This document shows positions 6,167-21,461 of a stretch of 64,000 bases of DNA, one piece after another; position 1 is the first letter of the stretch; each line of letters opens with the position of its first letter. The notes under the pieces are model-generated. The model was not told the origin of the DNA, ran no database searches, and saw only the letters and a program-made list of their open reading frames with translations. The DNA is taken from IMG/VR virus record IMGVR_UViG_3300025383_000009, one strand, 5' to 3'. This DNA comes from a virus (Duplodnaviria > Caudoviricetes). The position numbers and the translations under genes are program-made.

Positions 6167-6167
6167 T

Positions 6168-7136: not shown

Positions 7137-7325
7137 CTAAATTTTGAAGATATACTGCCTACTGGATATCCAACGCATCTTCTTAGGTGAGTTCTTCTTC
7201 TTGTTTGATACGATCTCAGGGATATCCACATCACTCTCATATACTGAGGTGACTTGATCTGAGTTGATAGCGATTTGTTTTGTTGCATTGCCATCGAATG
7301 CATTTTCAAATAATACGATTGGCAT
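7137..7325 (-). CDS. Small hypothetical protein
   Basis: 62 aa, TAATG-coupled to upstream gene. Confidence 0.55.
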   Translation of the reverse strand: MPIVLFENAFDGNATKQIAINSDQVTSVYESDVDIPEIVSNKKKNSPKKMRWISSRQYIFKI

Positions 7326-8419
7326 TAGAACGCTCCCAATAAAATAGTTTCTTCGTTGATCCGACCATTTGGAACTGTTGGCTTGGTCGTTAAAGCCTTT
7401 GCTGCTGTATTCAAATTCTTTTTACTTATAGATAAGTCTTTGAAGAACTTCTCAGGATTCCTAAGTGTCCATGACCATGACTTAGCTACACTGTAATTAA
7501 TTATAGTTGTACCCTTAACTGATAATAAGTCTGAGTCATCAGCTATATAAGCCACAAGTTTTCTATACTTGATATTATATGCCCATAACTCCTTAGCACC
7601 AACGATGTCTGTAGGATTACATGACTTAAGATTCAATAGATCGTGCTTAAACATATACTTAAGTTTCTTAACTAATACTGCAGGAGGCTTAACCTTAACT
7701 ACCCTTGGCTTCTTAACAGTAACTTGATGTTGAGCACAGTCATCTACAATAGATTGGATCGCAGCTCTAAACTTTTTAAGTTCTGTCTTAGTAAGGAATG
7801 AATAGCCTTCTGTAAGTTGTTCATCTGTACCAGTCAATGCTTCATCTATCTCATCAACGTTAAGCTTATAGTAGTCACCGATACGTTTAGCGACCATGCC
7901 TGACACGTTGTTAGATAACAAGTGTGCTTTAGTATTGAAGTCCCACGTTTTAGAATGGATAAACTTATCAATAGCATAGTCGATGTCCTCAGAGGCAGCA
8001 CGAGCTGCATCAGTCACACGTTGATCTATAGAGATGACTGGTGCCTTAGGACGATCGTCTACTATAGGTTGATTATAAGAATAGCACTCGTATAATGAGT
8101 CAAGCTTATCTTGTATACCCTTTTGATCCTTATCAGATAGATGCTCACCTTTATTGAGTATAGTAATAAGAGATCCTAATGATAGGAACTCATAATCTGG
8201 CGCCTTTGATAAGACATCATAATATTTCTTATTAGTCTTCTTAAGATAATTATGTACGGCCTTAGCACGTTCACTGTTATCCATATTAAGGTTATAGTAT
8301 CCTAAAGCTTTCATCAAAGACGTACGATAGTCGTCTTGTGTTACCACAGGAGCGCCAGCACCTATGCCTTTAGCGATAGCCTTTTCTTGCCATTCTTTGG
8401 TTGGTTTTTTAGTTTTCAT
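7325..8419 (-). CDS. Conserved T4-like hypothetical upstream of RNase H
   Basis: 364 aa; central part homologous to 53382..53804 (DEQL.EGYS.LTKT.LKK..A.I.SI.DDC). Confidence 0.75.
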   Translation of the reverse strand: MKTKKPTKEWQEKAIAKGIGAGAPVVTQDDYRTSLMKALGYYNLNMDNSERAKAVHNYLKKTNKKYYDVLSKAPDYEFLSLGSLITILNKGEHLSDKDQKGIQDKLDSLYECYSYNQPIVDDRPKAPVISIDQRVTDAARAASEDIDYAIDKFIHSKTWDFNTKAHLLSNNVSGMVAKRIGDYYKLNVDEIDEALTGTDEQLTEGYSFLTKTELKKFRAAIQSIVDDCAQHQVTVKKPRVVKVKPPAVLVKKLKYMFKHDLLNLKSCNPTDIVGAKELWAYNIKYRKLVAYIADDSDLLSVKGTTIINYSVAKSWSWTLRNPEKFFKDLSISKKNLNTAAKALTTKPTVPNGRINEETILLGAF

Positions 8420-8425
8420 ATTGGC

Positions 8426-8454
8426 AGTATACCATAATTAATTATTAATGTACA
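8426..8454 (-). promoter_or_regulatory. Early promoter TGTACA-17-TATACT
   Basis: TGTACATTAATAATTAATTATGGTATACT, 6 nt before ATG at 8419. Confidence 0.75.
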
Positions 8455-9718: not shown

Positions 9719-9879
9719 TATCTAATCTCCTTGATAAATTTTGCTTTGAGTAAACTTTCAACTATACCATTATCATTATCTTGAGCGGTTAACATCCAAC
9801 CTTCTAAAGTAGTACCTGAAAAGGCATATTGTGGGTTAACAAGGCATTTATAATAATGTCCATTGATTTTAAAAATCAT
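9718..9879 (-). CDS. Small hypothetical (53 aa) not in ORF track
   Basis: MIFKINGHYYKCLVNPQY...KEIR; TAATG-coupled on both ends. Confidence 0.6.
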   Translation of the reverse strand: MIFKINGHYYKCLVNPQYAFSGTTLEGWMLTAQDNDNGIVESLLKAKFIKEIR

Positions 9880-10166
9880 TATGCAGCCTCCCTTTCATCC
9901 TTCATTAAGCTAAACATGATGTGCTTAGCACGGTTGATGAATTGACGAGCTTCGTTAGCTTGTTGAGGTGATACCCAACCTTCGTTAGCACCGTTGAAGT
10001 CAGCACCGATAACTTCTTGTGCATCACTTAACATGCCTGCTGCGAACATCATTTCCTGACCTGGAAAAGCTTGCATTTTTACCATTTGGTCTAACTGAGC
10101 TTTAGTCATACCGTAAGCTTGTTTTTCCCATTCTAAATCTGATCCTATTGTCATTGCTGGTTTCAT
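9879..10166 (-). CDS. Hypothetical early protein, homolog of 62495..62764
   Basis: WE.QAYG..KA.L..MVK.QAFPG.E.MFAAG.LSDAQE shared. Confidence 0.7.
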   Translation of the reverse strand: MKPAMTIGSDLEWEKQAYGMTKAQLDQMVKMQAFPGQEMMFAAGMLSDAQEVIGADFNGANEGWVSPQQANEARQFINRAKHIMFSLMKDEREAA

Positions 10167-10197
10167 ATATCTCTCCGTTTGTTGATTTAATATAACC

Positions 10198-10226
10198 ATT
10201 ATACCGGAAAGTCTAATTAATGTACA
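10198..10226 (-). promoter_or_regulatory. Early promoter TGTACA-17-TATAAT
   Basis: TGTACATTAATTAGACTTTCCGGTATAAT. Confidence 0.75.
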
Positions 10227-10355
10227 TAGGCCCCCTTAAAATAAATAAGGTATACAGATCAATAACTTACGTATTATGCAAGTTATTGATTATATTGGAC
10301 TTTAGTTTGGGTGTGCCCTGGAGCGCCTGGGACAGCGCGGGCTGGAGGATATATG

Positions 10356-12365
10356 CTACTTAGATTGTGCCCTAAAAGTGCCATCCCATTCAGCCGGGAG
10401 GCCCTCTTCCATACGTTCAATCATGTTCATGTAGTACTGCTTGATGGTTACGCTGTCATCTTCGACCAAACCTTTGGCCCATTTGATAGCTTTATCCCAG
10501 TTTCCACGATAGTATTCTTTTATGTATTCATTATGCGCGTGTTTAACTGTCTCACCGATCGTGTAGATCTTAATGCCTTCAGTCTTACCTTTCACTGCGA
10601 TGTTATCTAGTTCAATAACGTTGTAATGGTCTTTAACTAGTTCTGCTGTGCGTGCACCTAAAACAAGCTTAACACCGTACGGCTTAGATTGTCCTTCAAG
10701 CCTTGACGCCAAATTGACTCCGTCACCGAGACAAGTATAGTCAAAACGCTGGCTAGAACCCATATTACCCACAACGACATCAGCAGTGTTAATACCAAGT
10801 CCCATCCCGAAAGCCGGTACGCCTTCTTTAGCAATCTCTTGATTGAACGCATCTAAGTCTCCTAACATTGATAGTGCAGTCTTAACTGCGTTGAGAGCAT
10901 GATCTTTATCATCAAGTGGAGCATTCCAAAAAGCCATCTGTGCATCACCAATATACTTATCAAGTGTTCCGTTGTTCTCTATGATCTTAGCAGTCATAGC
11001 TGTCATGTAACGATTCATGATCTTAGTTAAGCCTTGTACATCCTTACCATAGTGTTCTGATATGGTTGTGAAGCCTCTTACGTCTGTAAACATGATACTT
11101 AATTCTCTTGTTTCACCACCAAGCTTTAATAGTTCTGGGTTCTTTTGTAGTTTATCAACCATTGCTGGTGATAGGTATGTACCAAACTGTTTCTTGATCT
11201 GTAGTTTTTGGTTTAACTCGCTTACAAACTTAACAGTATATGTATGAGCATATACGATAGCCAAAGCAACGATAGGAAAAATCCCATCCAAAAGAACGCC
11301 GTAATGAGAGAAAACATAACTAGAAGCGTAATACAAAAAGCCAAGAAGAAGCAAAATAGGGATAATAGCATATTTCCACCTTGATAGGATAATGATAAAG
11401 ATTGATAATAATATGACTGCTAATACTTCAGCGCCATCTGCCCAGCCAGGTCGTGATATGCTAGTACCTGATGTGAGCGTGTCTAGAACTGACGCTTGAA
11501 GGTAATGAGGAAAGAGTCCACCTCGAGCTGTTGCAACTGGGTTGTTAAGTCCCTTTGCGGTAAGCCCAACAATGACGATACCTCCGTTAAATGATTCTGG
11601 GAGGTCCATAAGACTGTGTTCAATTGGAGTCGAGCTCCAGTCGACCCAGATACGACCGATTGGGTCGGTTGTAATTTTGGAGAAGCTTGGGATTCGAACA
11701 GCTTCGATTCCTGAAACGGAAGATTTGACTTGGAAACTTGGGTCTCCGACTGCGACACGCAAAGTTTCGAGAGTAATACTTGGGTAGAGCAAGCCTCCGC
11801 TTGATACGACCATAGGGATACGACGAACAACACCATCAATTTCAGGTAAGACATTTACAACTCCTATTCCAGCAGCTTTGTTATTAAATAGTTCAATGTT
11901 AGGTTGGATCCCAGGGTAATCAATAGTGAAGTCATGAGCTGGTGATCCAATCTCAGAGACTCCCGGTCTAAATGCTTGTCTAACTTGTTTATCTGTCGAT
12001 GCTACCTGAGGTAAGACGACAGGGTGTCCAGCAAGACTATCAACCAAGTTGGCATCGCGTCCAAAGCGATCAGAGTCAGGCATAAAGATATTAAAAACAA
12101 CAAGACCAGCATGACGGTGATAAAGATCCTCGATAATATTTGCATATTGACTCCTTGGAAATGGGAATTGACCAAGTCTTTCAATCGACTTATCATCGAT
12201 GTTAACCACGTGGACTTGCTTGGAAACGGTCTGTGGTTTACTAGTAATTAGTGTATCAAAGTACCTTAGTCGAACTGACTGCACAAAAGATGGGTCAGAT
12301 GCTCTAATACCTACTAGCAGAGCTAACGTTAACAGTGCAAACCAGGGTGATAATAATCTTTTCAT
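10356..12365 (-). CDS. CHASE2-domain class III adenylyl cyclase
   Basis: N-terminal TM, CHASE2 motifs (VVNIDDKSI..LGQFPFPR, DGVVRR.P), three TM helices, FTDVRGFT, DKYIGD, YTCLGDGVNLASRLE. Confidence 0.92.
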   Translation of the reverse strand: MKRLLSPWFALLTLALLVGIRASDPSFVQSVRLRYFDTLITSKPQTVSKQVHVVNIDDKSIERLGQFPFPRSQYANIIEDLYHRHAGLVVFNIFMPDSDRFGRDANLVDSLAGHPVVLPQVASTDKQVRQAFRPGVSEIGSPAHDFTIDYPGIQPNIELFNNKAAGIGVVNVLPEIDGVVRRIPMVVSSGGLLYPSITLETLRVAVGDPSFQVKSSVSGIEAVRIPSFSKITTDPIGRIWVDWSSTPIEHSLMDLPESFNGGIVIVGLTAKGLNNPVATARGGLFPHYLQASVLDTLTSGTSISRPGWADGAEVLAVILLSIFIIILSRWKYAIIPILLLLGFLYYASSYVFSHYGVLLDGIFPIVALAIVYAHTYTVKFVSELNQKLQIKKQFGTYLSPAMVDKLQKNPELLKLGGETRELSIMFTDVRGFTTISEHYGKDVQGLTKIMNRYMTAMTAKIIENNGTLDKYIGDAQMAFWNAPLDDKDHALNAVKTALSMLGDLDAFNQEIAKEGVPAFGMGLGINTADVVVGNMGSSQRFDYTCLGDGVNLASRLEGQSKPYGVKLVLGARTAELVKDHYNVIELDNIAVKGKTEGIKIYTIGETVKHAHNEYIKEYYRGNWDKAIKWAKGLVEDDSVTIKQYYMNMIERMEEGLPAEWDGTFRAQSK

Positions 12366-12493
12366 TTGATAGCGTGTGTCTTGTTATGTTTTAAACTCTT
12401 CTTGATTGCTTTCTTCCAAAGCTTCTCTTCTTTTTTAGGCTTATGCTTAACGCATGCCTTATACATCTTCATTATTAGTTCTTTAACTTTCAT
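12362..12493 (-). CDS. Small basic protein (43 aa) coupled to the cyclase
   Basis: MKVKELIMKMYKACVKHKPKKEEKLWKKAIKKSLKHNKTHAIK; ATGA overlap with cyclase start. Confidence 0.55.
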   Translation of the reverse strand: MKVKELIMKMYKACVKHKPKKEEKLWKKAIKKSLKHNKTHAIK

Positions 12494-12494
12494 G

Positions 12495-13385
12495 CTATGC
12501 TCCTTGTATTTTAAACTTAATATACTCTGTTATCAAGTCAGCGACGTCAGTCTCACAATACTGTTCAAACCCTTTAAATCCTGGGTTTGAGTTAGCTTCG
12601 CATACTCTAAAGCCTCTTTTGTCGAATAGTAAATCCACACCTGCAATATCTAGCTTAAGTACTTTTGCAGTCTCTCTAGCTATATATTCAATCTCGTCTG
12701 TTATCTCGTAGTTATGACCAGTGCCACCATTAGTGATGTTAGCTCTGAAGTCACCCTCTGGTGCTGTACGTCTCATAGCTCCTACTACTTTACCACCTAT
12801 GACAAGAACCCTTAAGTCCTCACCTGGACGGTCACCAAGATATTCCTGTACTATCATCGTCTTCTTAGCGTTTAAGATATCGATGAACTCCATCATCTTT
12901 TTGTACTCTCTTATGGTCTCACAGAGGTGTACACCTTCCCCATAAGAACCTGATACCAGCTTAACGACACACGGAAAGCCTATGTTATCAGTCACTAAGT
13001 CATCGTCTATAGGCAACCTTACTAACATCGTGTTTGGTATAGGTAACCCGTTCTTACTTAATATCTGTGATGTCCTTAGCTTATCTTTTACTATCTCGAC
13101 AGCAGAGCTTGAGTTAACACACATCACGCCTGCTTGTTCAAAGTGTCTTATCACTGCTAGCTGGAAAGGTAGTATGCCTGCACCCAACCTAACCAATAAT
13201 AACTTTGGTAACTCTATCGTCTCACCGTCGTACTTGATACCTTCACGTAGGTCTTTATCTACGATGATGTCAAAGTTATCAGGATGGCAGACACGAGCAG
13301 TTATACCTTTTGATGTAAAGCTTTCTACGAGCTTATTAGTCTCGTACTCGTTTCTTTCCTGCTTTGATAATATAATTACAGTCAT
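12495..13385 (-). CDS. RimK-family ATP-grasp ligase
   Basis: KDKL.T.Q.L...GLPIP.T, GFP.VVK..SGSYGEGV, IVQEY, DLRVLVIGGKV, FRAN...GG, IAGVDLL, EANSNPGF. Confidence 0.88.
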   Translation of the reverse strand: MTVIILSKQERNEYETNKLVESFTSKGITARVCHPDNFDIIVDKDLREGIKYDGETIELPKLLLVRLGAGILPFQLAVIRHFEQAGVMCVNSSSAVEIVKDKLRTSQILSKNGLPIPNTMLVRLPIDDDLVTDNIGFPCVVKLVSGSYGEGVHLCETIREYKKMMEFIDILNAKKTMIVQEYLGDRPGEDLRVLVIGGKVVGAMRRTAPEGDFRANITNGGTGHNYEITDEIEYIARETAKVLKLDIAGVDLLFDKRGFRVCEANSNPGFKGFEQYCETDVADLITEYIKFKIQGA

Positions 13386-13390
13386 GACAC

Positions 13391-13419
13391 ATTATAACTT
13401 ATTATTTAATTAATGTAAA
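13391..13419 (-). promoter_or_regulatory. Early promoter TTTACA-17-TATAAT
   Basis: TTTACATTAATTAAATAATAAGTTATAAT, 5 nt before RimK ATG. Confidence 0.7.
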
Positions 13420-13420
13420 A

Positions 13421-13774
13421 TTATTCGAAGCCTTCGTTGCGTTTTACACGCCATACATAAGACATCTGTGTTCCATCTGGCCTATCATCATTGATAAGTA
13501 TACGCTCACCGTTTGGTAAGTTAAAGATGATGTCGTCAAACCTAATATCATGTTTCTCTAAGAACTTTATAGTATGCTTCTTAAGATACTTTGGTCTAGC
13601 AGTAATTAAGATTATATGGTCCTTTTCAGGTATAGTATCCCAAAACTCTTTAACACCAGGCAATAACTTATCTTTACATACCGCAGACTTTAATAGGTTA
13701 TACCTTAATATAGTCCCATCAAGATCGATAAACCAAGTCTTGCGATGTTTAGACTTTAAGTTAGTTAACTTCAT
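13421..13774 (-). CDS. HAD-superfamily phosphatase-like (PNKP phosphatase type)
   Basis: WFIDLDGT, IILITARP, FDDIIF, RILINDD. Confidence 0.7.
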   Translation of the reverse strand: MKLTNLKSKHRKTWFIDLDGTILRYNLLKSAVCKDKLLPGVKEFWDTIPEKDHIILITARPKYLKKHTIKFLEKHDIRFDDIIFNLPNGERILINDDRPDGTQMSYVWRVKRNEGFE

Positions 13775-14338
13775 TTATAGTGGTAACCAGAGCCATAAAC
13801 CTTGTGACATCAATACTACACCAACCAAACATAATAGGAATGATGAGTAGAATAATGGCATTGATACAGCAAGGATAGACGCTGATAACAACACGATAGA
13901 TAGCTGATAAGCTGTACCTGCATAACCGATCCATGGAGATCTCTTCTTAGCATAGTCACGGTCAGCTTCTAACTTCTTAGCTGTATCATATAATGCAGGT
14001 TTTCCTTCTGGTCCTTCATCATAGCTTTTAGCTTTTACTGCAAATTTCTTAGCTAGATCTGGGTTTGTAGCAGTCTGAGCTGAGATCTCATACTGTGTTT
14101 GCTTTACTGATTTAGCTTGGTAGAAGTTCCATAAGTCGTTTGCTTTGATCGTGTTGTTCATGATGAGTGAACCTAATGAACCTCCGAACCATACGTTAAA
14201 TGCCAATAAAGCAGCAAATATATTAATGATTAAACCCGCATGTGATTTAATCTTAACCTCTTTTTCTGATCTTGAAGGTCCAATGTTCTTAGTCTCTTCC
14301 TTTGTTAATGTCTTAATGACCATATCTTCTAAAGCCAT
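13775..14338 (-). CDS. DUF4337-like membrane protein
   Basis: IFAALLA, ANDLWNFYQAKSVKQ, QLSIVLLSASIL pattern, three TM segments. Confidence 0.65.
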   Translation of the reverse strand: MALEDMVIKTLTKEETKNIGPSRSEKEVKIKSHAGLIINIFAALLAFNVWFGGSLGSLIMNNTIKANDLWNFYQAKSVKQTQYEISAQTATNPDLAKKFAVKAKSYDEGPEGKPALYDTAKKLEADRDYAKKRSPWIGYAGTAYQLSIVLLSASILAVSMPLFYSSFLLCLVGVVLMSQGLWLWLPL

Positions 14339-14339
14339 G

Positions 14340-15404
14340 TTAGTTTCCTTTTTGATTGATGGTTATACTATTGGTCGTTTGGTCTTGATTTTTTAAATTT
14401 ACCGTTACGCCATTTTGTATAATATTTATATTGTATCCTTTATCTTTATCTATTAATACTGTAGCACTATCTTTAACTGTTCTTTGTATCATCCAATATG
14501 TTTGTTTGTCAAAAATATAAACTTGATTTAGAGCATTATATCCTACAACAAAAGTAGCTAACAATGTATTATCAAGAGCATTTGTTAAATAGTTTGTATC
14601 AAGAGGATTAACATCTAGTTCATTGAAACCCGCATATGGGTCTTTAAATACTTTTGAATCTAATGCATTTTGTTCCAATCCTGTAAACTCTAAAGCAGAA
14701 CCAGATTTATTGGCTATTTCAGCTTGTATTCTTTCAACAACTTCTTTTGGAGGTTTAACGATAAGCATATTATCAATAGCTGATTCTGATAAAGCTAATA
14801 GAACAGGTTTAAGAGGTTTAATTTCTGATGATTTTGTTACTGTAGCTTGAAATGCTTGGTTTAAAACAACTTTTCCCATAGCTGTGCTAACTTCAATTGA
14901 ACCAACTGAACCATCTGGATTAGGTAATAAAATAATGAGAGATTGACCTATTTCATCTACTGTCATTGTGAATGCTGTACCACGAACAGCAACAGTTGCC
15001 GTTGGTGTATTAATAGCCACATTTTTATTATTTTCATGGGCAATATTACCAGATGCATAACGAACAGTTCCCATTGTTACATTGAGAGCTAATTTACCTG
15101 CACCTTTTTTATTGGGGTCATAGACAAAATCGTCTATAAGAAGTTTTGAATGTTCGGTAACACGAACTTGTGTGTTATCTTCAAATGTAATGCCTACTAT
15201 TCCATTGCCTGTTTGAACAATATCATTACTATCTATATTTGATTTAGGTTTAGCCTCTATTACATCTTTATTTCTAGTAATAGAGGCTGGACCTTTTTGT
15301 TCAGTTATAGAACCAATTACCGCCCAACTAGTGTTGGATGACAGACACAGAAGCACCGCTACCAGTAAGGTTAACGATTGCACTATTTGGGTTGGTCGTA
15401 CCAT
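14340..15404 (-). CDS. FecR-domain periplasmic protein
   Basis: Signal-like N-terminus; D.VQTGNG.VGITFEDNT.VRV.E.SKL.ID, GTVRYASG, INTPTATVAVRGT.F. Confidence 0.85.
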   Translation of the reverse strand: MVRPTQIVQSLTLLVAVLLCLSSNTSWAVIGSITEQKGPASITRNKDVIEAKPKSNIDSNDIVQTGNGIVGITFEDNTQVRVTEHSKLLIDDFVYDPNKKGAGKLALNVTMGTVRYASGNIAHENNKNVAINTPTATVAVRGTAFTMTVDEIGQSLIILLPNPDGSVGSIEVSTAMGKVVLNQAFQATVTKSSEIKPLKPVLLALSESAIDNMLIVKPPKEVVERIQAEIANKSGSALEFTGLEQNALDSKVFKDPYAGFNELDVNPLDTNYLTNALDNTLLATFVVGYNALNQVYIFDKQTYWMIQRTVKDSATVLIDKDKGYNINIIQNGVTVNLKNQDQTTNSITINQKGN

Positions 15405-16035
15405 CTTGAGTCACACTTATATTATTTGAATTACCAATGTTGTTAATACTAATACTATGGCCTGCACCAGCACCAGTACCATTTGCACCTGTTTGGCTTG
15501 TGGTGATACTGTTATTGTTACCTGCAATTGCTATAGTATCTGTAACATTTTTACTGTTTATGGTACTTGTTATCGAATTACTATTTCCTACAGTAGTGAT
15601 GCTATAGTTATAATTACTCGAATCTCTCATTGTTCCTATATTCAATACAGAATTATTGTTACTACCTGAAAACGATAAATTTAAATTACCGTTATCAGTA
15701 CCAAAGTTTCCGTAATTCAATACGATACCGTTACTATTACCATCTTGAGATATTACTCCTGTAGAACCACCACCAACAAAATTACCTGTGATAGAGTTGT
15801 TCATACCGTTTTGTGTGATACCTAAATTAATACTGTTACCATCAATCACAAATGATGGACTACCAACATTAGTAGGATCTCCTACCGTGTTGTTAGAACC
15901 TGTTTGTGTTATGGTGACTGTAGAATTATCAGCGTTAGTTTGGTCAATATAAACACTATTACCTCCACTATCGACTGCCAAAGCACTAAATGCTAATAAC
16001 AAACCCATCACAAAAGTGATAAGCTTACTTTTCAT
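15328..16035 (-). CDS. Secreted curlin-like beta-repeat protein
   Basis: Signal peptide, then Q/x-x-G-x-x-N repeats (ITQTGSNN, ITQNGMNN, ISQDGNSN, IAGNNN, VTQDG), rich in N/S/G/T. Confidence 0.7.
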   Translation of the reverse strand: MKSKLITFVMGLLLAFSALAVDSGGNSVYIDQTNADNSTVTITQTGSNNTVGDPTNVGSPSFVIDGNSINLGITQNGMNNSITGNFVGGGSTGVISQDGNSNGIVLNYGNFGTDNGNLNLSFSGSNNNSVLNIGTMRDSSNYNYSITTVGNSNSITSTINSKNVTDTIAIAGNNNSITTSQTGANGTGAGAGHSISINNIGNSNNISVTQDGTTNPNSAIVNLTGSGASVSVIQH

Positions 16036-16807
16036 TCTTTTTCTCCTTAAATTGCCACATACCTTTTTTTTCACCTTGAATAATCAATTGCTCTACCGCC
16101 AGGTCTGTAGCTGCTTTTATGGCGTGTATAGAAGCCTCTGTTTGAGATATTCCTATCTCTTGTTCAAAATTTTGTGTTCCATTATCAAAAAACTTAAATA
16201 TAGCTACACCTGCTGTATAACTCAATATGGTTTTTTGAGCGTTTACTGTTAATAGCACTTCACCTGTTTGTGTGCTAATTGCTCTAATACTTACAGTCAC
16301 CACATCTTCTTGATATTGTGTGTCTGGTCCAATTCCTAACCAACGAACACCAATACCACCTGTTCTTATATTTGTATCATAACTTATAATTCCGCCTTCA
16401 ATAATCATACCTGCATACAACATAGGTCTGATTCCAGAAGGATCTCTTGCTTCATCTCTTGCTGAACGAATTAGTTGTCTTTCTTTTAATAAGTTGTCTA
16501 TACCAACTCGTTCTACTATTCTAAACCATTTTCCATCACCAGCATCTTCTAATGATTTTAATAATACTGTTTCACCGCCTTGTGTTACAGCTGATGATAA
16601 TTTAGCAATTGTAGCAGAATCTTTTCTTTGACCAGTTTTATCAGCAAAACTATAAACAGCTACAACTACTTTACCTTTAGCAGGTTCAGGTAATGGAGCT
16701 CTAGCCCATTTCATTGGCATAATTTCTGGTTCTTTTTTAATAACATTCATTGGCGGTGTGCAGCCAATTATTGTTATACACATAAGTGCTATTAATATTT
16801 TTTTCAT
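16025..16807 (-). CDS. csgG: CsgG/HfaB-family outer membrane lipoprotein channel
   Basis: Lipobox IIGC; VAVYSFADKTGQRK, SSAVTQG, WFRIVERVGIDNLLKERQLIR, EGGIISYDTN..TGG.G. Confidence 0.88.
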   Translation of the reverse strand: MKKILIALMCITIIGCTPPMNVIKKEPEIMPMKWARAPLPEPAKGKVVVAVYSFADKTGQRKDSATIAKLSSAVTQGGETVLLKSLEDAGDGKWFRIVERVGIDNLLKERQLIRSARDEARDPSGIRPMLYAGMIIEGGIISYDTNIRTGGIGVRWLGIGPDTQYQEDVVTVSIRAISTQTGEVLLTVNAQKTILSYTAGVAIFKFFDNGTQNFEQEIGISQTEASIHAIKAATDLAVEQLIIQGEKKGMWQFKEKKNEK

Positions 16808-16808
16808 A

Positions 16809-17249
16809 TTAGAAACTTAAAGTTCCAATAGGAATACTAACTTGTGTTACATTACCATTTTGATCCTTAACAGTCATGTTAATCATGTCAGCTGTTTTAG
16901 TGTATGTAATAGTATTGCCTTCAATGGTAACAGTTCCACTATTTTGTGGATTTTCACCAAACAGATTATTAATTAATTGTGTAGATAGTTGAGCATAGAC
17001 TCTGCTCTCAAAGTTAGTCAAGAACTTGGCTAATATAGTATTACCTGCAGCTGTAGCAGCATCAATTGCAGCTTGTTTTTTGGCCGCATAAATTGCTTGT
17101 TTACGAGTGTATTCAGTATTCTCTATTGTTTGAACGTGAGAAGAGTATCCTATACCTGAAAAAGAAGGAGATTTAAATTGAAACGTCTGTTCTGCATATG
17201 CGCTACTTGACAGTATCGTCAGTATGAGAATTCTTATTGTTTTCTTCAT
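16809..17249 (-). CDS. csgF: CsgF-like curli assembly protein
   Basis: Signal peptide then EQTFQFKSPSFSG, matching the CsgF N-terminus TMTFQFRNPNFGG; F..N.ESR.YAQLS. Confidence 0.8.
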   Translation of the reverse strand: MKKTIRILILTILSSSAYAEQTFQFKSPSFSGIGYSSHVQTIENTEYTRKQAIYAAKKQAAIDAATAAGNTILAKFLTNFESRVYAQLSTQLINNLFGENPQNSGTVTIEGNTITYTKTADMINMTVKDQNGNVTQVSIPIGTLSF

Positions 17250-17484
17250 CTTTAATTTCTCGCATCATTAATACTACATTAAGTTTTTGATTTAATCTAA
17301 TCAAATCATTATCTAGCATTCTAATACGGTCAATCAAAGCAATCACTATCTTTTCAGTTTCATTTAATACTGGTTCTGTTTCTTCTGTTGCCCACTTCCA
17401 AACATAAAAAATAAGATAACCCATACCGCAAGCAGCGATAATAGGAAATCCATATTTACTAATTAAATCTGCTAATTCTTCCAT
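17203..17484 (-). CDS. Small membrane protein (paralog of 18271..18549)
   Basis: GFPIIAACGMGY.IFYVW, DRIRMLDNDLIR. Confidence 0.7.
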   Translation of the reverse strand: MEELADLISKYGFPIIAACGMGYLIFYVWKWATEETEPVLNETEKIVIALIDRIRMLDNDLIRLNQKLNVVLMMREIKDEENNKNSHTDDTVK

Positions 17485-18269
17485 TAAATTTTATCCTGTG
17501 GATGCTCAACACCTTGAGACCAATCATATAGATTTAAAACATAATGACCTATAGCATGGTTATCAAGTAAACTGAATTTTTTATTTTTAACACCTCTGAT
17601 AAAGCCACGCCATACATCTTTAGTCAATTGCCATCCACTAAAACTTCTCAAATTGCCCCAATGGTTCATGTAATACATTCCACCAAAATGTTTATAAGGC
17701 CAAACAGGAACACGAGGAACCATATCTGTATTGTTTACAAATCTAAAATGTAATACACCTGTGTTTGTAATGCCTTCAATATACTCATGTGTTCCAACTC
17801 TTGGACTTCCATAAGTAAATAATGCTTGAGCACTTGGTAAATTTTCATCTCTTTGTAGTTTATAAGCTACAATAGTTGCCATCGCTGCACCTAAACTATG
17901 ACCGGTACACCAGATGGTTCTTTTCTTACCTAATTCTTTTAACATTGGTTCTAATGTTGGCCAAATATTATCTACACTATGTTTAAAACCATAATGAACT
18001 AAACCTTTGCCTGTTGAACTTGGAACAGGATTAGCTTCTAAATCTGCCGCTAAATCTCTCCAATCAGTTGGTTGTGTGCCTCGGCAAACAACGATTGCAT
18101 CTTCATCATTAGTCAATAAATAAGCTTGACTTCCATTGCAATCAAAGAACTCACTTCTAAAACCTAACTCATCAAATTTGGGTTTTGAATCGAATGGATC
18201 CGAATATGCTAAATTGCTTAATACAGCAAATAAATGAGCTTGTTTTGGAAAAGGCATTACTTTAATCAT
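17484..18269 (-). CDS. Class 3 lipase (alpha/beta hydrolase)
   Basis: VVCRGT, VHYGF, CTGHSLGAAMA, TYGSPRVG, RFVNNTDMVPRVP. Confidence 0.88.
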   Translation of the reverse strand: MIKVMPFPKQAHLFAVLSNLAYSDPFDSKPKFDELGFRSEFFDCNGSQAYLLTNDEDAIVVCRGTQPTDWRDLAADLEANPVPSSTGKGLVHYGFKHSVDNIWPTLEPMLKELGKKRTIWCTGHSLGAAMATIVAYKLQRDENLPSAQALFTYGSPRVGTHEYIEGITNTGVLHFRFVNNTDMVPRVPVWPYKHFGGMYYMNHWGNLRSFSGWQLTKDVWRGFIRGVKNKKFSLLDNHAIGHYVLNLYDWSQGVEHPQDKI

Positions 18270-18270
18270 T

Positions 18271-18549
18271 TTAATCCTTTCTAGCGTCGTTTTTGCCATC
18301 TGCTCTAGCAATACGATCCAAATCAGGACGAACTTTTAAAGCGTTAGACATTAAAGTATCAATTCTAATAATATCATGATTCATGGTTTTAACTCTATTG
18401 TCCAAAGCTATAATTATACCATTTAAGCCCTTGACTCTTGAGAGAACTCCTGCGAGGATAAACTTTACAGTTAAAAAGATGAAATAACCACCAGCACAAG
18501 CAGCGGCTATTGGAAAACCCAAATCGGCAATTAACTTAAATATATCCAT
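18271..18549 (-). CDS. Small membrane protein (paralog of 17203..17484)
   Basis: GFPIAAACAGGYFIF, NRVKTMNHDIIRID. Confidence 0.7.
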   Translation of the reverse strand: MDIFKLIADLGFPIAAACAGGYFIFLTVKFILAGVLSRVKGLNGIIIALDNRVKTMNHDIIRIDTLMSNALKVRPDLDRIARADGKNDARKD

Positions 18550-18555
18550 ATTAAC

Positions 18556-18584
18556 TTGACATTCATGAATGATTATTGTATAAT
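18556..18584 (+). promoter_or_regulatory. Consensus sigma70 promoter for the DNA polymerase operon
   Basis: TTGACA-17-TATAAT with TG immediately before -10. Confidence 0.85.
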
Positions 18585-18594
18585 CCTTGATAAG

Positions 18595-18602
18595 TATTTA
18601 TA
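18595..18602 (-). promoter_or_regulatory. Late promoter TATAAATA driving curli-like operon
   Basis: Exact T4 late consensus 46 nt before ATG at 18549. Confidence 0.7.
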
Positions 18603-18618: not shown

Positions 18619-18930
18619 ATGGAAGTAATTGCATTCAAATTAATCACAGGTGAAGACGTTTTAGGCGAAGTAGAAAGTCAGTCTGAAACAGAATTCGTTG
18701 TTTTAAATCCAGTAGGTATTTCAATTGTTCGAGGACAAGATGGTAAACCAAACGTAGGTTTTTCGCCTTTTCCACTCCATGCAGAACAAAAGAAAGATGC
18801 CACAGTCATTTTAAGTAAAAGAAACGTAGTATATAACTATGTTCCAGCAGAAGACTTTATCACAAACTATAAACAAATATTTGGGGCAGGTTTAGTTGTT
18901 CCACCACAAAAGAAAATCATCACAGGATAA
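18619..18930 (+). CDS. Conserved Sm-like hypothetical upstream of DNA polymerase
   Basis: FKLITGEDVLGEV...NP pattern typical just before gp43 in T4-like phages. Confidence 0.7.
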   Translation: MEVIAFKLITGEDVLGEVESQSETEFVVLNPVGISIVRGQDGKPNVGFSPFPLHAEQKKDATVILSKRNVVYNYVPAEDFITNYKQIFGAGLVVPPQKKIITG

Positions 18931-21461
18931 TGAGTAACTTTTACACTAATGTTCAAAGTTTTGGCAATAACATTCTCTATCGAGGTGTTATGGATGGCAA
19001 AAGAGTAAAACAGAGAATTGAATATTCTCCATCTCTTTTTGTTCCATCCAAACGTATAACAAACTTCACAACACTTGAAGGTGATTACCTCGACCAAAAA
19101 GTATTTGGTACCATGAAAGACGCTAGAGATTATATCAAACAATTCGATGGTGTGTCAAATGGTCCTAAAATATATGGTAATACAAAATATGAGTATGCGT
19201 TTATTGCCGACCAACACAAAGGTATGGTTGAATGGGACCAAGATAAGATATCAATTGCAGTAATCGATATTGAAGTTGGTTCTGAAAATGGTTTCCCAGA
19301 CCCATACGAAGCAAATGAACCTATTATTGCTATTGCTGTTAAGTATCTCAATGGCGAAATGTATGTCTTTGGTCTTGGTGCATATGAAACTCAAGGTAAA
19401 GAAATCTATGTTAAATGCCGTGATGAATATACATTGTGTAAAAGATTTATGGAACTATGGACAAGAAAATGTCCAGATATCGTAACTGGATGGAATACAA
19501 AATTCTTTGATATACCATACATCATCAATCGATTTAGAAGAATACTTGGTGAAGATGAGGCAAAGAAACTTTCTCCATGGAATTATATTGGTGAAAGAAA
19601 AACTGTTGTGAACAATCGTCAGATGATTGCCTATGATATTCTTGGTGTTTCTTCTTTAGACTACATTGAACTATACAGATGGTATGCTCCTGGTGGCAAG
19701 TCACAAGAATCCTATAAACTTAATTCTATTGCATCAGTTGAACTTGGTGAAGAAAAGATATCATATGATGAATATGATTCTCTACATGATTTATACAAAA
19801 TGAACCATCAAAAGTTTATTGAATATAATATCAAAGACGTAGAACTTATTGTTTCATTGGAAGACAAATTAAAACTCATTGAACTTGGTTTAACTTTGGC
19901 ATATGATACAAAATCAAACTATGATGATATCTTTGCACAAACTAGAATGTGGGATTCATTAACATATTCTTATTTGCTTGAAAAGAACATCATTGTTCCA
20001 CCTAAAGTTGTTAAAGATAAAGATTCAGCATTTGAAGGCGCATATGTAAAAGACCCACAAGTAGGCAAGCATGATTATATCGCCAGCTTTGACCTAAATT
20101 CACTCTACCCCCACCTCATGATGCAATTCAATATCTCACCTGAAACACTTATTGATCCAGAAGATTATACAGATGAGATGAGAGAAGTGTTATCTCAAGG
20201 TGTTAATGTTGATAAGTTATTATATAAAAAGATTGATACATCAAAACTCCAAAACGCAACACTTACTCCAAATGGTCAATTCTTTAGAACTGATATGATG
20301 GGTTTCTTACCAAAGATGATGGAAGAAATGTATGAAGATAGAAAGAAATTTAAAAAATTAATGTTAAAGGCGAAACAAGATTATGAAGACGAAACAGATG
20401 ACACGAAAAAGTATGAAATTGAAAAACGAATTGCAAGATACGATAATCTTCAACTTGCTAAGAAAGTTTCTCTTAATAGTGCTTACGGTGCTCTTGGTAG
20501 TCAGTATTTTAGATTCTACGATTTACGCATGGCTTTGGGAGTAACAACATCTGGTCAATTAGCAATTCGTTGGATTGAAAACAAACTCAATGACTATATG
20601 AACAAGTTATTACAAACTGAAACAGATTATGTTATTGCTTCAGATACAGATTCAATTTATCTTAAACTTGGTCCTATCGTTGATAAATTCTGTAAAGATA
20701 AGTCGATTGAACAAACTATTCAATTCATGGATAAAATCTGTGAAGATAAGATTCAGCCATACATTGATAAGTCTTATGGCGAACTAGCAGATTATCTCAA
20801 GGCATATTCCCAAAAGATGCAAATGAAACGAGAAGCGTTGGCTAACAAAGGTATTTGGACTGCTAAGAAACGATACATTCTCAATGTGTTTAATAACGAA
20901 GGTGTTGCTTATAAAGAACCAAAGATGAAAGTCATGGGTCTTGAGATGATTAAGTCATCAACACCATCTGCCATTAGAACAAAGATGGCAGAAGCAATTA
21001 AACTTATGATGATTGGCTCTGAAAACGATATACATGAGTTTATTAAAAAGTTTAAAGAAGATTTCAAAAAGTTACCACCAGAAGAGATTTCTTTTCCTCG
21101 TGGCATCAATGGTTTAAATAAATACTCTGATGCTGTGACTTTATATAAATCAGGAACACCGATTCATGTAAAGGGAGCAATCTTATATAATAACTTTATT
21201 AAACAAAATAAACTAACAAAAAAATACAATCTCATACAAGAAGGCGAAAAGATAAAGTTTGCTTATTTGAAAATGCCTAATCACTTTAAGGATACTGTTA
21301 TATCCTATCCTAGCAGATTACCTAAAGAATTAAATTTACATGATTATATTGATTATGATATGCAATTTGAAAAAGCATTCATAGAGCCAATTAAAATCAT
21401 TCTTGATTGTATGGGTTGGACAACAGAAAAGATTAACACTTTGGAGGATTTCTTCTCATGA
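18930..21461 (+). CDS. gp43: Family B DNA polymerase
   Basis: DIEV, GWN..FFDIPY, SFDLNSLYP, K..LNSAYGALG, ASDTDS, KKRYIL; 843 aa, no intein. Confidence 0.98.
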   Translation: MSNFYTNVQSFGNNILYRGVMDGKRVKQRIEYSPSLFVPSKRITNFTTLEGDYLDQKVFGTMKDARDYIKQFDGVSNGPKIYGNTKYEYAFIADQHKGMVEWDQDKISIAVIDIEVGSENGFPDPYEANEPIIAIAVKYLNGEMYVFGLGAYETQGKEIYVKCRDEYTLCKRFMELWTRKCPDIVTGWNTKFFDIPYIINRFRRILGEDEAKKLSPWNYIGERKTVVNNRQMIAYDILGVSSLDYIELYRWYAPGGKSQESYKLNSIASVELGEEKISYDEYDSLHDLYKMNHQKFIEYNIKDVELIVSLEDKLKLIELGLTLAYDTKSNYDDIFAQTRMWDSLTYSYLLEKNIIVPPKVVKDKDSAFEGAYVKDPQVGKHDYIASFDLNSLYPHLMMQFNISPETLIDPEDYTDEMREVLSQGVNVDKLLYKKIDTSKLQNATLTPNGQFFRTDMMGFLPKMMEEMYEDRKKFKKLMLKAKQDYEDETDDTKKYEIEKRIARYDNLQLAKKVSLNSAYGALGSQYFRFYDLRMALGVTTSGQLAIRWIENKLNDYMNKLLQTETDYVIASDTDSIYLKLGPIVDKFCKDKSIEQTIQFMDKICEDKIQPYIDKSYGELADYLKAYSQKMQMKREALANKGIWTAKKRYILNVFNNEGVAYKEPKMKVMGLEMIKSSTPSAIRTKMAEAIKLMMIGSENDIHEFIKKFKEDFKKLPPEEISFPRGINGLNKYSDAVTLYKSGTPIHVKGAILYNNFIKQNKLTKKYNLIQEGEKIKFAYLKMPNHFKDTVISYPSRLPKELNLHDYIDYDMQFEKAFIEPIKIILDCMGWTTEKINTLEDFFS

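What the first reader, a model, noticed from the sequence alone, without database searches (positions are those of the whole stretch)
10356..18602. Phage curli-like export operon contiguous with FecR and a CHASE2 adenylyl cyclase: candidate trans-envelope signalling system
Seen: one co-directional run from a late promoter (18595): membrane protein, lipase, paralogous membrane protein, CsgF, CsgG lipoprotein, secreted curlin-like repeat protein, FecR, DUF4337-like, HAD, RimK, small basic ORF, CHASE2 cyclase. Established: CsgG/CsgF form the outer-membrane curli pore, FecR domains relay signals across the periplasm, and CHASE2 is an extracytoplasmic sensor found on cyclases. CsgF/G genes have been reported in some marine T4-like phages (pelagiphage and methylophage), so their presence alone is not new. 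Inference: the parts could form an OM pore, periplasmic relay and IM cyclase chain that senses an envelope event (superinfection, contact, amyloid assembly) and makes cAMP, rather than only building fibres. No csgE, csgD or separate nucleator is visible. Caveat: the composition shift near 14.3 kb means the cyclase and curli halves may come from different genomes.
Basis: partly seen in the sequence, partly recalled or inferred. Interest (0 to 1): 0.85.

Follow-up and report, generated by a model that had tools for sequence, protein, structure and literature searches.

The report
Known phage curli-FecR-cyclase module, freshwater copy
This is a freshwater copy of a gene cluster already published for ocean phages (an outer-membrane curli-type pore, a fibre-like protein, a periplasmic FecR-type protein and a membrane sensor that makes cAMP); the genes really belong together, but what the system does is still untested.

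Summary
Observation confirmed. All twelve minus-strand genes and their domains are there, and TATAAATA lies at 18595-18602.

The gene linkage is real. Pelagibacter phage HTVC008M and Methylophilales phage Melnitz carry the same set. So do all 31 IMG/VR loci with at least 6 kb on both sides of the cyclase.

It is not new. Wittmers et al. 2022 (PMC9599517) described this "T8SS + FecR + adenylate cyclase" cluster in pelagiphages. This scan has also noted it before on other DNA, in at least 36 genomes.

What this check adds:
- The cyclase is an intact CHASE2 receptor adenylyl cyclase of class IIIb.
- A FecR-domain gene directly upstream of a CHASE2 sensor gene is a recurrent bacterial pairing.
- The FecR protein has no anti-sigma part, so it is not an iron regulator.
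- CsgF-CsgG-curlin-FecR is inherited as one cassette. The cyclase is more loosely attached.
- The GC step near 14.3 kb is a natural cassette border, also present in independent contigs.
- The 64-kb record itself may still join two co-occurring phages, with the crossover inside the module.

A pore-to-FecR-to-cyclase relay is plausible but unproven. The complex prediction gave no verdict, and no co-variation was seen.

The parts
18595..18602 (-). TATAAATA, a T4-type late-promoter-like motif 46 nt upstream of the first gene
   Evidence: The motif is present but not enriched in the window (5 found, 10.7 expected), so its function is unverified.
18271..18549 (-). mem1: 92-aa single-pass membrane protein with a C-terminal coiled coil (phrog_18771). 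This is the gene called 'HK' in the published module.
   Evidence: The family has 837 clusters, all 67-209 aa, and is virus-only in the Atlas. It has no kinase domain. Among cultured phages it occurs only in the six records that carry the module.
17484..18311 (-). Class 3 lipase with no signal peptide. Strain-variable cargo between mem1 and mem2.
   Evidence: Pfam E 8e-27. Absent from L003 and L004; present in L035 and L074. Unitig depth is lower here than over the rest of the module.
17203..17484 (-). mem2: 93-aa paralogue of mem1
   Evidence: Weak match of residues 1-48 to the holin family phrog_4898 (E 1e-5).
16809..17249 (-). CsgF-like protein with a signal peptide. The mature N-terminus reads TFQFKSPSF.
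   Evidence: Pfam CsgF, E 1e-16; sequence.
16025..16807 (-). CsgG-like outer-membrane lipoprotein (lipobox IIGC)
   Evidence: Pfam E 4e-49. Full-length alignment to E. coli CsgG, E 3e-44. The constriction residues Y51/N55/F56 are replaced by S/K/L.
15328..16035 (-). Secreted curlin-like repeat protein with about eight strand-turn-strand rungs
   Evidence: Pfam Curlin_rpt above cut-off. Signal peptide. Periodic invariant Q/G/N columns. All-beta repeat model, pLDDT 80.6. Foldseek gives only weak beta-solenoid matches.
14340..15404 (-). Periplasmic FecR-fold protein. It has a signal peptide, an N-terminal beta domain (about residues 30-214), a disordered linker with LDxNxLD repeats (214-282), and a small C-terminal beta domain (288-351).
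   Evidence: Residues 58-214 match the PupR C-terminal signalling domain (6ovk, Z 15.9). Residues 27-122 match the periplasmic plug domain of the MpIBP adhesin (5ix9, Z 7.1, 27% identity).
13775..14338 (-). DUF4337 membrane protein. Variable cargo between FecR and the cyclase.
   Evidence: Pfam E 3e-24. Three hydrophobic segments. Present in only a few relatives: L003, L004, L008, L015, L061.
13421..13774 (-). Small HAD-like protein (cargo)
   Evidence: Pfam below cut-off. phrog_1238, E 2e-9.
13391..13419 (-). Sigma-70-like promoter TTTACA-17-TATAAT, ending 5 nt before the RimK ATG
Evidence: Consensus match only.
12495..13385 (-). RimK-type ATP-grasp ligase (cargo)
   Evidence: Pfam RimK E 3e-49 and Rimk_N E 9e-16. 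Present only in L003 and L004 among the relatives.
12362..12493 (-). 43-aa basic ORF that often precedes the cyclase in relatives
10356..12365 (-). Receptor adenylyl cyclase: one TM helix, periplasmic CHASE2 domain (about residues 22-312), a TM bundle, a class IIIb catalytic domain, and a conserved C-terminal extension
   Evidence: D428, D474, K470, T544, N551 and R555 are invariant in 32 phage homologues.

Best explanation
What it is. This is the phage "type VIII secretion (curli) + FecR + adenylate cyclase" module already described in SAR11 and OM43 phages. Here it lies in freshwater T4-like phage DNA and carries extra cargo genes: lipase, DUF4337, HAD-like and RimK.

Most likely working.
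1. In the infected cell the phage builds an outer-membrane CsgG/CsgF pore.
2. The pore exports a curlin-like beta-solenoid protein.
3. A periplasmic FecR-fold protein belongs to that export block.
4. An inner-membrane cyclase reads a periplasmic cue through its CHASE2 domain and makes cAMP in the cytoplasm. The most likely cue is the state of the pore or fibre block, passed on by the FecR-fold protein.
5. No phage cNMP-binding protein was found, so the cAMP would act on host targets.

Shown: gene identities, membrane topology from sequence, an intact ATP-type active site, conserved linkage in phages, and FecR-CHASE2 gene pairing in bacteria.

Inferred: secretion of the curlin, any FecR-CsgG or FecR-CHASE2 contact, the nature of the signal, and the effect of cAMP.
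For: Linkage:
- The same gene set is in HTVC008M and Melnitz.
- It is in 31 of 31 IMG/VR loci with at least 6 kb on both sides of the cyclase; some of these loci are near-duplicates.
- Three sub-blocks, [mem1, mem2], [CsgF-CsgG-curlin-FecR] and [cyclase], stay adjacent through at least three different arrangements.
- The FecR stop overlaps the cyclase start in many relatives.
- Among 50,697 cultured-phage records, CsgG, FecR, the cyclase and mem1 share one phyletic pattern: the same six records.

Cyclase:
- Full-length CHASE2 plus class III domain.
- Catalytic D, D, K, T, N and R are invariant.
- CHASE2 is well conserved, so it looks like a working sensor.

FecR-CHASE2 pairing outside phages:
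- The closest bacterial cyclases are alphaproteobacterial (Bradyrhizobium and others), 33-39% identical over the full length.
- 25 of 63 such loci have a co-directional FecR-domain ORF directly upstream.
- Published examples: the LysM-FecR plus CHASE2 histidine kinase operon in Burkholderia and P. aeruginosa (PMC5192318), and the FecR gene smc02177 next to cyaD1 in S. meliloti (PMC5498481).

Precedent for outer membrane to CHASE2 cyclase: the NsrA beta-barrel is needed for signalling to CyaD1, CyaD2 and CyaK (PMC13001267).

FecR fold: it matches domains that dock under outer-membrane proteins, namely PupR (Z 15.9) and the adhesin plug RIN (Z 7.1).

Expression of the module in ocean metatranscriptomes is reported by PMC9599517.
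Against: - No direct sign of a FecR-CHASE2 contact. The complex prediction gave no verdict.
- Distance matrices of the FecR N-domain and CHASE2 correlate only at r = 0.23, no better than FecR against the catalytic domain.
- Two FecR types combine freely with CHASE2 variants.
- FecR co-varies with CsgF, CsgG and curlin (r = 0.91-0.97) but much less with the cyclase (0.42-0.62).
- PMC9599517 reports podophage modules that keep FecR but often lack the cyclase. FecR must therefore have a role that does not need the cyclase.
- In S. meliloti the FecR neighbour was not required for signal perception.
- No bacterial locus among the 80 examined joins CsgG to FecR-CHASE2. The only two that do look like phage contigs binned into MAGs.
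- In this window a variable 2-kb cargo and a possible separate promoter lie between FecR and the cyclase.
- No cAMP receptor was found in five complete relatives.
Confidence: 0.5

Rival explanations
1. Fibre factory with separate regulators (the published reading). The module exists to make curli-like fibres on infected cells, for aggregation ("sibling capture") or to shield against superinfection. FecR and the cyclase are general regulators, sensing iron or giving cAMP control of expression, and are not a physical relay.
For: CsgG, CsgF and a curlin-repeat protein with a signal peptide are all present. This reading is proposed in PMC9599517 and PMC7029224. FecR is inherited with the curli block. 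Some podophage modules lack the cyclase.
Against: The FecR protein lacks the cytoplasmic anti-sigma domain and TM helix, and no ECF sigma factor or TonB-dependent transducer is in the run. It therefore cannot act as a Fec-type iron regulator. No clumping or fibres were seen with Melnitz (PMC9004378). No CsgD-like or cAMP-dependent regulator is in the phage genomes. The CsgG constriction residues are changed.
Confidence: 0.25
2. Lysis-timing device. The CsgG/CsgF pore has been repurposed as a gated channel or pinholin-like element. Together with the two small holin-like membrane proteins, and perhaps cAMP, it sets the time of lysis.
For: Proposed for Melnitz from structure modelling and synteny (PMC9004378). 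mem2 matches a holin family weakly (phrog_4898, E 1e-5). The mem pair always accompanies the module. Earlier scan notes place the module inside lysis cassettes in other phages (not checked here).
Against: [quoted passage not shown] The holin match is weak, and Pfam finds nothing. This reading does not explain the curlin protein, FecR or a receptor cyclase. No lysin gene is in the run.
Confidence: 0.1
3. Uptake pore plus unrelated auxiliary genes. CsgG/CsgF, ungated because CsgE is missing, simply makes the outer membrane leaky to nutrients or cofactors. The cyclase and the other genes are independent cargo of a hypervariable region.
For: CsgE is absent. The idea is raised in PMC7029224 and PMC9599517. 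The region does collect variable cargo: lipase, DUF4337, HAD, RimK.
Against: Independent cargo would not give 31 of 31 co-occurrence, neighbourhood kept through inversions, or overlapping FecR and cyclase reading frames. An uptake pore needs neither CsgF nor a curlin.
Confidence: 0.08
4. Assembly artefact. The curli half and the cyclase half come from different genomes and are joined only in this contig.
For: - GC steps from 0.33-0.35 to 0.41-0.42 near 13.4-14.3 kb.
- The window holds diverged duplicates of an RNase H block, a lysin-like gene and an early gene.
- Unitig depth left of 14.47 kb and over lipase/mem1 differs 1.8- to 3-fold, and the ratio changes between samples.
- Graph branch points lie inside the module.
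- A second module copy is noted about 157 kb away in the same record.
Against: - Two IMG/VR contigs from other samples (L003, L004) align to window 9877-17474 in one piece at 95.5% identity.
- Unitigs of two runs cover 10356-14472 without a difference.
- In L003 the CsgF-to-FecR block is a low-GC island between GC-richer flanks on both sides, so the step is a natural cassette border.
- Dozens of more distant phages have the same order.
- A crossover between two co-occurring phages may exist. If so, it lies inside or to the right of the module (about 15.4-18.3 kb). It would not create the linkage.
Confidence: 0.02

Closest known systems
Viral T8SS (curli) module with FecR and adenylate cyclase of pelagiphages (Wittmers et al. 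2022, PMC9599517; also HTVC008M, the pelagimyophages of PMC7029224, and Melnitz of PMC9004378)
   Same: Same genes in the same order: one or two small membrane proteins (called 'HK' there), CsgF, CsgG, curlin repeat protein, FecR, a variable slot, then the cyclase. Proteins are 37-59% identical to HTVC008M and Melnitz. The closest cellular relatives are alphaproteobacterial, as published.
   Different: Freshwater source. The slot between FecR and the cyclase holds DUF4337, HAD-like and RimK genes instead of a second curlin gene, and a lipase sits between the two small membrane genes. The papers do not mention CHASE2, read FecR as an iron regulator, and call the 92-aa proteins histidine kinases. 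None of these readings fits the sequences.
Sinorhizobium meliloti cAMP cascade: NsrA (outer-membrane beta-barrel), then the CHASE2 cyclases CyaD1/CyaD2/CyaK, then Clr
   Same: CHASE2 receptor adenylyl cyclases of the same alphaproteobacterial type. An outer-membrane protein is required upstream of them. A FecR-domain gene (smc02177) lies next to cyaD1.
   Different: The outer-membrane part is NsrA, not CsgG/CsgF, and there is no curlin. The FecR neighbour was not needed for signal perception. The output regulator Clr is known there; no receptor is known here.
LysM-FecR protein plus CHASE2 histidine kinase operon of Burkholderia and Pseudomonas aeruginosa (PMC5192318)
   Same: A periplasmic FecR-domain protein is encoded directly upstream of a CHASE2 sensor, and the pair is conserved across genera.
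   Different: The output there is a histidine kinase with a response regulator, not a cyclase. The FecR protein carries LysM. There are no secretion genes.
Enterobacterial curli system CsgBAC/CsgDEFG
   Same: CsgG lipoprotein pore (E 3e-44 to E. coli CsgG), CsgF with the conserved N-terminal peptide, and a curlin-repeat substrate.
   Different: No CsgE, CsgC or CsgD, and no separate nucleator. The constriction residues Y51/N55/F56 are replaced by S/K/L. The phage system also has FecR, a cyclase and two small membrane proteins.
Fec-type cell-surface signalling (FecA-FecR-FecI; PupR)
   Same: The periplasmic beta domain has the FecR/PupR fold (Z 15.9 to 6ovk).
   Different: There is a signal peptide instead of the cytoplasmic anti-sigma domain and TM helix. 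No ECF sigma factor or TonB-dependent transducer is nearby.

Membership tests
Phage T8SS-FecR-adenylate cyclase module (Wittmers et al. 2022) | CsgF, CsgG, curlin-repeat gene and FecR in that order, preceded by one or two small 'HK' genes and followed by an adenylate cyclase | tested here: met
   The order matches HTVC008M and Melnitz and the description in PMC9599517.
Phage T8SS-FecR-adenylate cyclase module (Wittmers et al. 2022) | The small upstream genes are histidine kinases | tested here: not met
   They are 92-93 aa, with no HisKA or HATPase match in Pfam even at E 5. All 150 listed family representatives are 67-209 aa.
Curli type VIII secretion system | CsgG lipoprotein with a lipobox Cys and full-length similarity to solved CsgG | tested here: met
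   Lipobox IIGC. Pfam E 4e-49. E 3e-44 over residues 4-257 to E. coli CsgG.
Curli type VIII secretion system | CsgG constriction residues Tyr51, Asn55 and Phe56 | tested here: not met
   They align to Ser, Lys and Leu. The residue numbering is from my own knowledge of E. coli CsgG.
Curli type VIII secretion system | CsgF with the N-terminal peptide that enters the CsgG barrel | tested here: met
   Pfam CsgF E 1e-16. The mature start reads TFQFKSPSF. Its likeness to the E. coli TFQFRNPNF motif is from memory.
Curli type VIII secretion system | Secreted curlin-repeat subunit that forms amyloid fibres | tested here: inconclusive
   Repeats, signal peptide and a beta-repeat model are present. There is no significant structural match. 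Fibre formation cannot be tested here.
Curli type VIII secretion system | Accessory genes csgE, csgC, csgD and a separate nucleator csgB | tested here: not met
   None is in the run or elsewhere in the window. According to PMC9599517, these genes are also lacking in alphaproteobacterial systems.
Fec-type anti-sigma regulator (FecR/PupR) | Periplasmic FecR-fold domain | tested here: met
   Pfam PF04773, E 7e-9. Z 15.9 to 6ovk.
Fec-type anti-sigma regulator (FecR/PupR) | N-terminal cytoplasmic anti-sigma domain and TM helix, with a partner ECF sigma factor and TonB-dependent transducer | tested here: not met
   The N-terminus is a signal peptide. No such domains are found in any ORF of the run.
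CHASE2 receptor class III adenylyl cyclase | CHASE2 domain between an N-terminal TM helix and a TM bundle | tested here: met
   CHASE2 E 4e-38 over residues 13-325. Hydrophobic segments at 4-22, 309-327 and 355-373.
CHASE2 receptor class III adenylyl cyclase | Two metal-binding Asp, the substrate pair Lys plus Asp/Thr, and the transition-state Asn and Arg | tested here: met
   D428, D474, K470, T544, N551 and R555, by alignment to CyaB (3r5g) and Cya2 (2w01). They are invariant in 32 homologues. Assignment of roles is from established knowledge of class III cyclases.
CHASE2 receptor class III adenylyl cyclase | Makes cAMP in response to a periplasmic signal | not testable with these tools
   Needs an enzyme assay or complementation of a cya-minus strain.
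Bacterial FecR-CHASE2 sensor gene pair | A FecR-domain gene directly upstream of, and co-directional with, a CHASE2 sensor gene | tested here: met
   In relatives the two genes abut or overlap. In this window 2 kb of cargo separates them. In bacteria, 25 of 63 loci show the pair. Literature examples.
Holin (phrog_4898) | Significant similarity to a known holin family, and membrane permeabilisation | tested here: inconclusive
   Only mem2 residues 1-48 match, at E 1e-5. No Pfam match. Function not testable here.

The most novel reading that the evidence does not exclude
The FecR-fold protein is a physical coupler. It docks under the phage-built CsgG/CsgF pore, as FecR/PupR docks under its transducer and as the RIN plug sits under TolC. 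It then reports the state of the pore or of the surface fibre (assembly, pulling, contact with a particle or another phage) to the CHASE2 domain. An infected cell would thus carry a virus-encoded signalling chain running from the outer membrane through the periplasm to the inner membrane, with cAMP as its output. The bacterial relatives would work the same way. There, the FecR domain is the N-terminus of giant cadherin/RTX-type surface proteins encoded next to the cyclase.
Probability: 0.3. Interest if true: 0.75.

Novelty: new member of a known kind. Interest (0 to 1): 0.42.

Why it matters
The module is very common in aquatic viromes. More than 591 IMG/VR contigs encode a relative of the cyclase, and PMC9599517 reports the module at all 65 ocean stations it examined. 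It gives infected cells an outer-membrane pore and a cAMP source that the cultured hosts (SAR11, OM43) are reported not to encode for the curli part. Its function is an open question.

Two points from this check turn that question into specific experiments: cyclase activity with and without the FecR and pore genes, and binding tests. First, the cyclase is a CHASE2 receptor. Second, FecR-CHASE2 is a recurrent bacterial sensor pair, not an iron regulator next to a separate enzyme.

The same pair, attached to giant surface proteins in Bradyrhizobium and its relatives, hints at a wider and uncharacterised class of surface-coupled cyclases.

For this window alone the result is modest: another member, from fresh water, with different cargo.

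Tried and rejected
- Complex prediction of the CHASE2 periplasmic domain (residues 22-312) with the mature FecR protein (29-354): score 0.00, no verdict. This is not evidence either way.
- Co-variation of FecR with CHASE2 across 32 paired loci: r = 0.23, the same as with the catalytic domain. No signal, and the test has low power because even domains within the cyclase correlate only at about 0.4.
- Search for a phage cAMP receptor (Pfam cNMP_binding) in five complete relatives: none found.
- Pfam on mem1, mem2 and their HTVC008M and Melnitz homologues at E up to 5: nothing meaningful. The Atlas gives only a weak YvrJ lead.
- Profile search of the FecR family against PDB sequences: no hit below E 0.4. 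The relation is visible only by fold.
- Foldseek of the curlin model against PDB: no match at E <= 0.001, only weak beta-solenoid rows.
- Homologue search with the FecR protein: all 120 listed hits are close homologues (64-97% identity) from metagenomes, so it gave no view of bacterial relatives.
- Genomic context of distant mem-family members: the contigs were too short to tell whether the family occurs without the module.
- Late-promoter claim: TATAAATA is not enriched in the window.
- No whole genome is held for the window, so the second module copy reported by earlier notes could not be inspected.
- Host cAMP biology: a literature search gave nothing usable.

Full report
**1. What is there**

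The window is T4-like phage DNA. The polymerase at 18930-21461 is about 50% identical to cyanomyophage gp43. No whole genome is held for the window.

A minus-strand run of twelve ORFs lies between 18549 and 10356.
- two paralogous 92-93-aa membrane proteins (phrog_18771)
- a class 3 lipase between them
- CsgF
- CsgG, with a lipobox
- a curlin-repeat protein with a signal peptide
- a FecR-domain protein with a signal peptide
- DUF4337
- a small HAD-like protein
- RimK
- a 43-aa ORF
- a 669-aa CHASE2 plus class III cyclase

Hydropathy gives the expected topology. The cyclase has one N-terminal TM helix, a periplasmic CHASE2 domain and a TM bundle ahead of the catalytic domain.

TATAAATA lies at 18602-18595, but the motif is not enriched in the window. 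A sigma-70-like site sits directly before RimK. Transcription as a single late unit is therefore not shown.

**2. Is the linkage real?**

Yes. Among 50,697 cultured-phage records, CsgG, the FecR protein, the cyclase and mem1 hit the same six records, all HTVC008M or Melnitz. The only other hits are a 1.5-kb Salmonella fragment for CsgG and three partial, unrelated records for the cyclase. In those six records the genes stand in the same order.

IMG/VR holds more than 591 contigs with a relative of the cyclase. Of the 80 best loci, all 31 with at least 6 kb on both sides of the cyclase also carry CsgF, CsgG, curlin, FecR and the mem genes. Some of these loci are near-duplicates.

The arrangement varies:
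- 40 loci have the canonical order.
- 11 have the mem pair flipped to the far side of the cyclase.
- 5 have the whole CsgF-to-FecR block and the mem pair inverted.
In every case the three sub-blocks remain neighbours. In many loci the FecR stop overlaps the cyclase start by four bases. The slot between FecR and the cyclase is otherwise variable: 0-3.9 kb, sometimes holding a second curlin gene. In this window it holds DUF4337, HAD-like, RimK and the 43-aa ORF.

**3. It is already published**

- Zaragoza-Solas et al. 2020 (PMC7029224) and Buchholz et al. 2022 (PMC9004378) discuss only csgF and csgG. They never mention a cyclase, FecR or CHASE2.
- Wittmers et al. 2022 (PMC9599517) describe the whole cluster in podo- and myo-pelagiphages: "HK", CsgF, CsgG, CsgA/B, FecR, a second CsgA/B and an adenylate cyclase. 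They report alphaproteobacterial affinities, transfer between virus families, and expression in metatranscriptomes.
- No later paper on it was found.
- This scan has also met the module before, in at least 36 other genomes.

**4. What the sequences say beyond the papers**

(a) *The cyclase is a receptor.* It has a complete, well conserved CHASE2 domain. The six canonical class III residues are D428, D474, K470, T544, N551 and R555. The Lys/Thr pair is the ATP-specifying pair of class IIIb. All six are invariant in 32 homologues.

(b) *FecR here is only the periplasmic beta domain behind a signal peptide.* It has no anti-sigma domain or TM helix, and no ECF sigma factor or TonB-dependent transducer is nearby. 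It is therefore not a Fec-type iron regulator.

The model (pLDDT 72) shows three parts:
- An N-terminal domain. Residues 58-214 match the PupR C-terminal signalling domain (Z 15.9). Residues 27-122 match RIN, the periplasmic plug domain of the MpIBP adhesin (Z 7.1, 27% identity).
- A disordered linker.
- A small C-terminal beta domain with no clear match.
Both matched domains sit under outer-membrane proteins (PMC5550230; the role of PupR is from my own knowledge).

(c) *FecR next to CHASE2 is a bacterial habit.* The closest cellular cyclases are alphaproteobacterial and 33-39% identical over the full length. In 25 of 63 such loci with enough upstream DNA, a co-directional ORF with an N-terminal FecR domain ends just before the cyclase gene. 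These ORFs are 499-3080 aa long and carry cadherin-like, laminin-G, Big_9 or RTX repeats. One locus also has a LapG-type protease gene nearby.

The literature gives two more cases. One is the LysM-FecR plus CHASE2 histidine kinase operon of Burkholderia and P. aeruginosa. The other is the FecR gene smc02177 beside cyaD1 in S. meliloti. There, the outer-membrane protein NsrA is needed for signalling to the CHASE2 cyclases.

No bacterial locus joined CsgG to this pair. The two exceptions, L083 and L147, look like phage contigs binned into MAGs.

(d) *The "HK" genes are not kinases.* They are 92-93-aa single-pass proteins with a coiled coil. They belong to a family of 837 clusters whose listed members are all under 210 aa. 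They split into two very conserved paralogue types. One has a weak holin-family match.

(e) *CsgG is a full-length relative of E. coli CsgG,* but its constriction residues are changed to Ser, Lys and Leu.

(f) *The curlin protein* has periodic invariant Q/G/N columns and folds as about eight beta rungs in a confident model. It has no significant match to solved structures.

**5. How tightly is each part tied?**

Across 52 loci, identity to the window of CsgF, CsgG, curlin and FecR correlates at r = 0.91-0.97. The cyclase correlates with these four only at 0.42-0.62, and the mem genes do not correlate with them.

FecR occurs in two types with unrelated C-terminal parts. These combine freely with CHASE2 variants, and the FecR N-domain and CHASE2 distance matrices correlate at only 0.23.

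PMC9599517 reports that podophage modules often lack the cyclase but keep FecR. Taken together, FecR is first of all a part of the export block, and the cyclase is a looser partner. This weakens, but does not exclude, a direct FecR-CHASE2 relay. The complex prediction gave no verdict. No cNMP-binding protein is encoded in five complete relatives, so any cAMP would act on host targets.

**6. The composition step and the chimera caveat**

The step is real. Contiguity across it is independently supported:
- L003 and L004, from two other samples, align to window 9877-17474 in one piece at 95.5% identity.
- Unitigs of two public runs cover 10356-14472 without a difference.
- In L003 the flanks on both sides are GC 0.36-0.43, while the CsgF-to-FecR block is 0.32-0.36.
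The step is therefore the border of a low-GC cassette that moves between phages.

The graph branch points agree with that. They lie at 14352 and 14448-14472, at 16286-17000, and at 17284-17319.

The record as a whole is still suspect, for four reasons:
- Right of about 17.5 kb, identity to L003 drops to 68%.
- The window holds diverged duplicates of an RNase H block, a lysin-like gene and an early gene.
- Depth of the cyclase side and of the lipase/mem1 side differs 1.8- to 3-fold, with a ratio that changes between samples.
- Earlier notes report a second module copy about 157 kb away.
The record may join two co-occurring related phages, with a crossover inside the shared module. That does not affect the CsgF-to-cyclase linkage. 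It does mean that mem1, the lipase and the TATAAATA site may belong to a different genome from the cyclase.

**7. Source**

All 20 runs that hold the stretch are labelled freshwater metagenome. PMC7029224 states that the freshwater pelagimyophages it found lack the curli operon. The module is therefore also present in freshwater myophages. The host is unknown, and the window has no tRNA gene.

**8. Verdict**

This is a correct observation of a real, conserved, widespread and already published phage module.

It gains indirect support from the bacterial FecR-CHASE2 pairing, the NsrA precedent and the FecR fold. It stays unproven.

For this window the novelty is that of a new member with different cargo. 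The open functional question keeps some interest.

Noticed in passing
window 1-64000; duplicates at 3373-4020 / 45733-46356, 5750-8437 / 53364-55119, 9882-10235 / 62498-62815: The window holds diverged second copies (29-65% aa identity) of a three-gene block that includes RNase H, of a lysin-like gene and of an early gene. GC is 0.37-0.42 left of about 13.4 kb, 0.30-0.35 from about 14 to 62 kb, and 0.44-0.45 at 62-64 kb. The record may be a join of two related co-occurring phages.
   Followed up: partly
window 14352, 14448-14472, 16286-17000, 17284-17319: Assembly-graph branch points and strain variants in public freshwater runs bracket the CsgF-CsgG-curlin-FecR block. In contig L003 the same block is a low-GC island between GC-richer flanks. 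The four genes appear to move between phages as a cassette.
   Followed up: partly
window 10356-18602: All 20 public runs that hold this stretch are labelled freshwater metagenome. The literature states that the freshwater pelagimyophages it examined lack the curli operon.
   Followed up: partly
window 13391-13419: A sigma-70-like promoter (TTTACA, 17 nt, TATAAT) ends only 5 nt before the RimK ATG. That would give a nearly leaderless mRNA, and possibly earlier expression of RimK and the cyclase than of the pore genes.
   Followed up: no
window 17484-18311: A class 3 lipase without a signal peptide is inserted between the two paralogous membrane genes. It is absent from the closest relatives (L003, L004), present at the same place in L035 and L074, and has lower unitig depth than the rest of the module.
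   Followed up: partly
L086-L144 (for example L090:4577-9922 with the cyclase at L090:10001-12232): In Bradyrhizobium and its relatives, the CHASE2 cyclase gene follows a giant ORF (up to about 3000 aa). The ORF has an N-terminal FecR domain and cadherin-like, laminin-G, Big_9 or RTX repeats. In L090 a LapG-type (BTLCP) protease gene lies nearby. This looks like an uncharacterised surface-protein-coupled cyclase.
   Followed up: partly
model of window 14340-15404, residues 27-122: The start of the FecR-fold domain superposes on RIN, the periplasmic plug domain of the Marinomonas ice-binding adhesin (5ix9; Z 7.1, rmsd 2.1 A, 73 of 76 residues, 27% identity). The retention domain of such adhesins and the FecR domain may be related.
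   Followed up: partly
L083 (RGCF01000015.1) and L147 (JAKVCT010000429.1): Two contigs filed under a Bacteroidetes MAG and a Saprospiraceae MAG carry the phage-type module, or a curlin-cyclase junction, with 56% and 40% identity to the window cyclase. They are probably phage contigs binned into bacterial genomes.
   Followed up: no
A2 alignment (FecR proteins of 32 loci): The FecR proteins fall into two types. Their N-domains are about 50% identical, but their C-terminal parts are essentially unrelated (13-22% identity). The type goes with the type of curlin, CsgF and CsgG, not with the cyclase variant.
   Followed up: partly
L020:9200-9827, L010:9200-9856; window 50760-51416: In two relatives, the slot between FecR and the cyclase holds a homologue (68-70% DNA identity) of a gene that lies 35 kb away in this window. 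This is further evidence that the slot collects mobile cargo.
   Followed up: no
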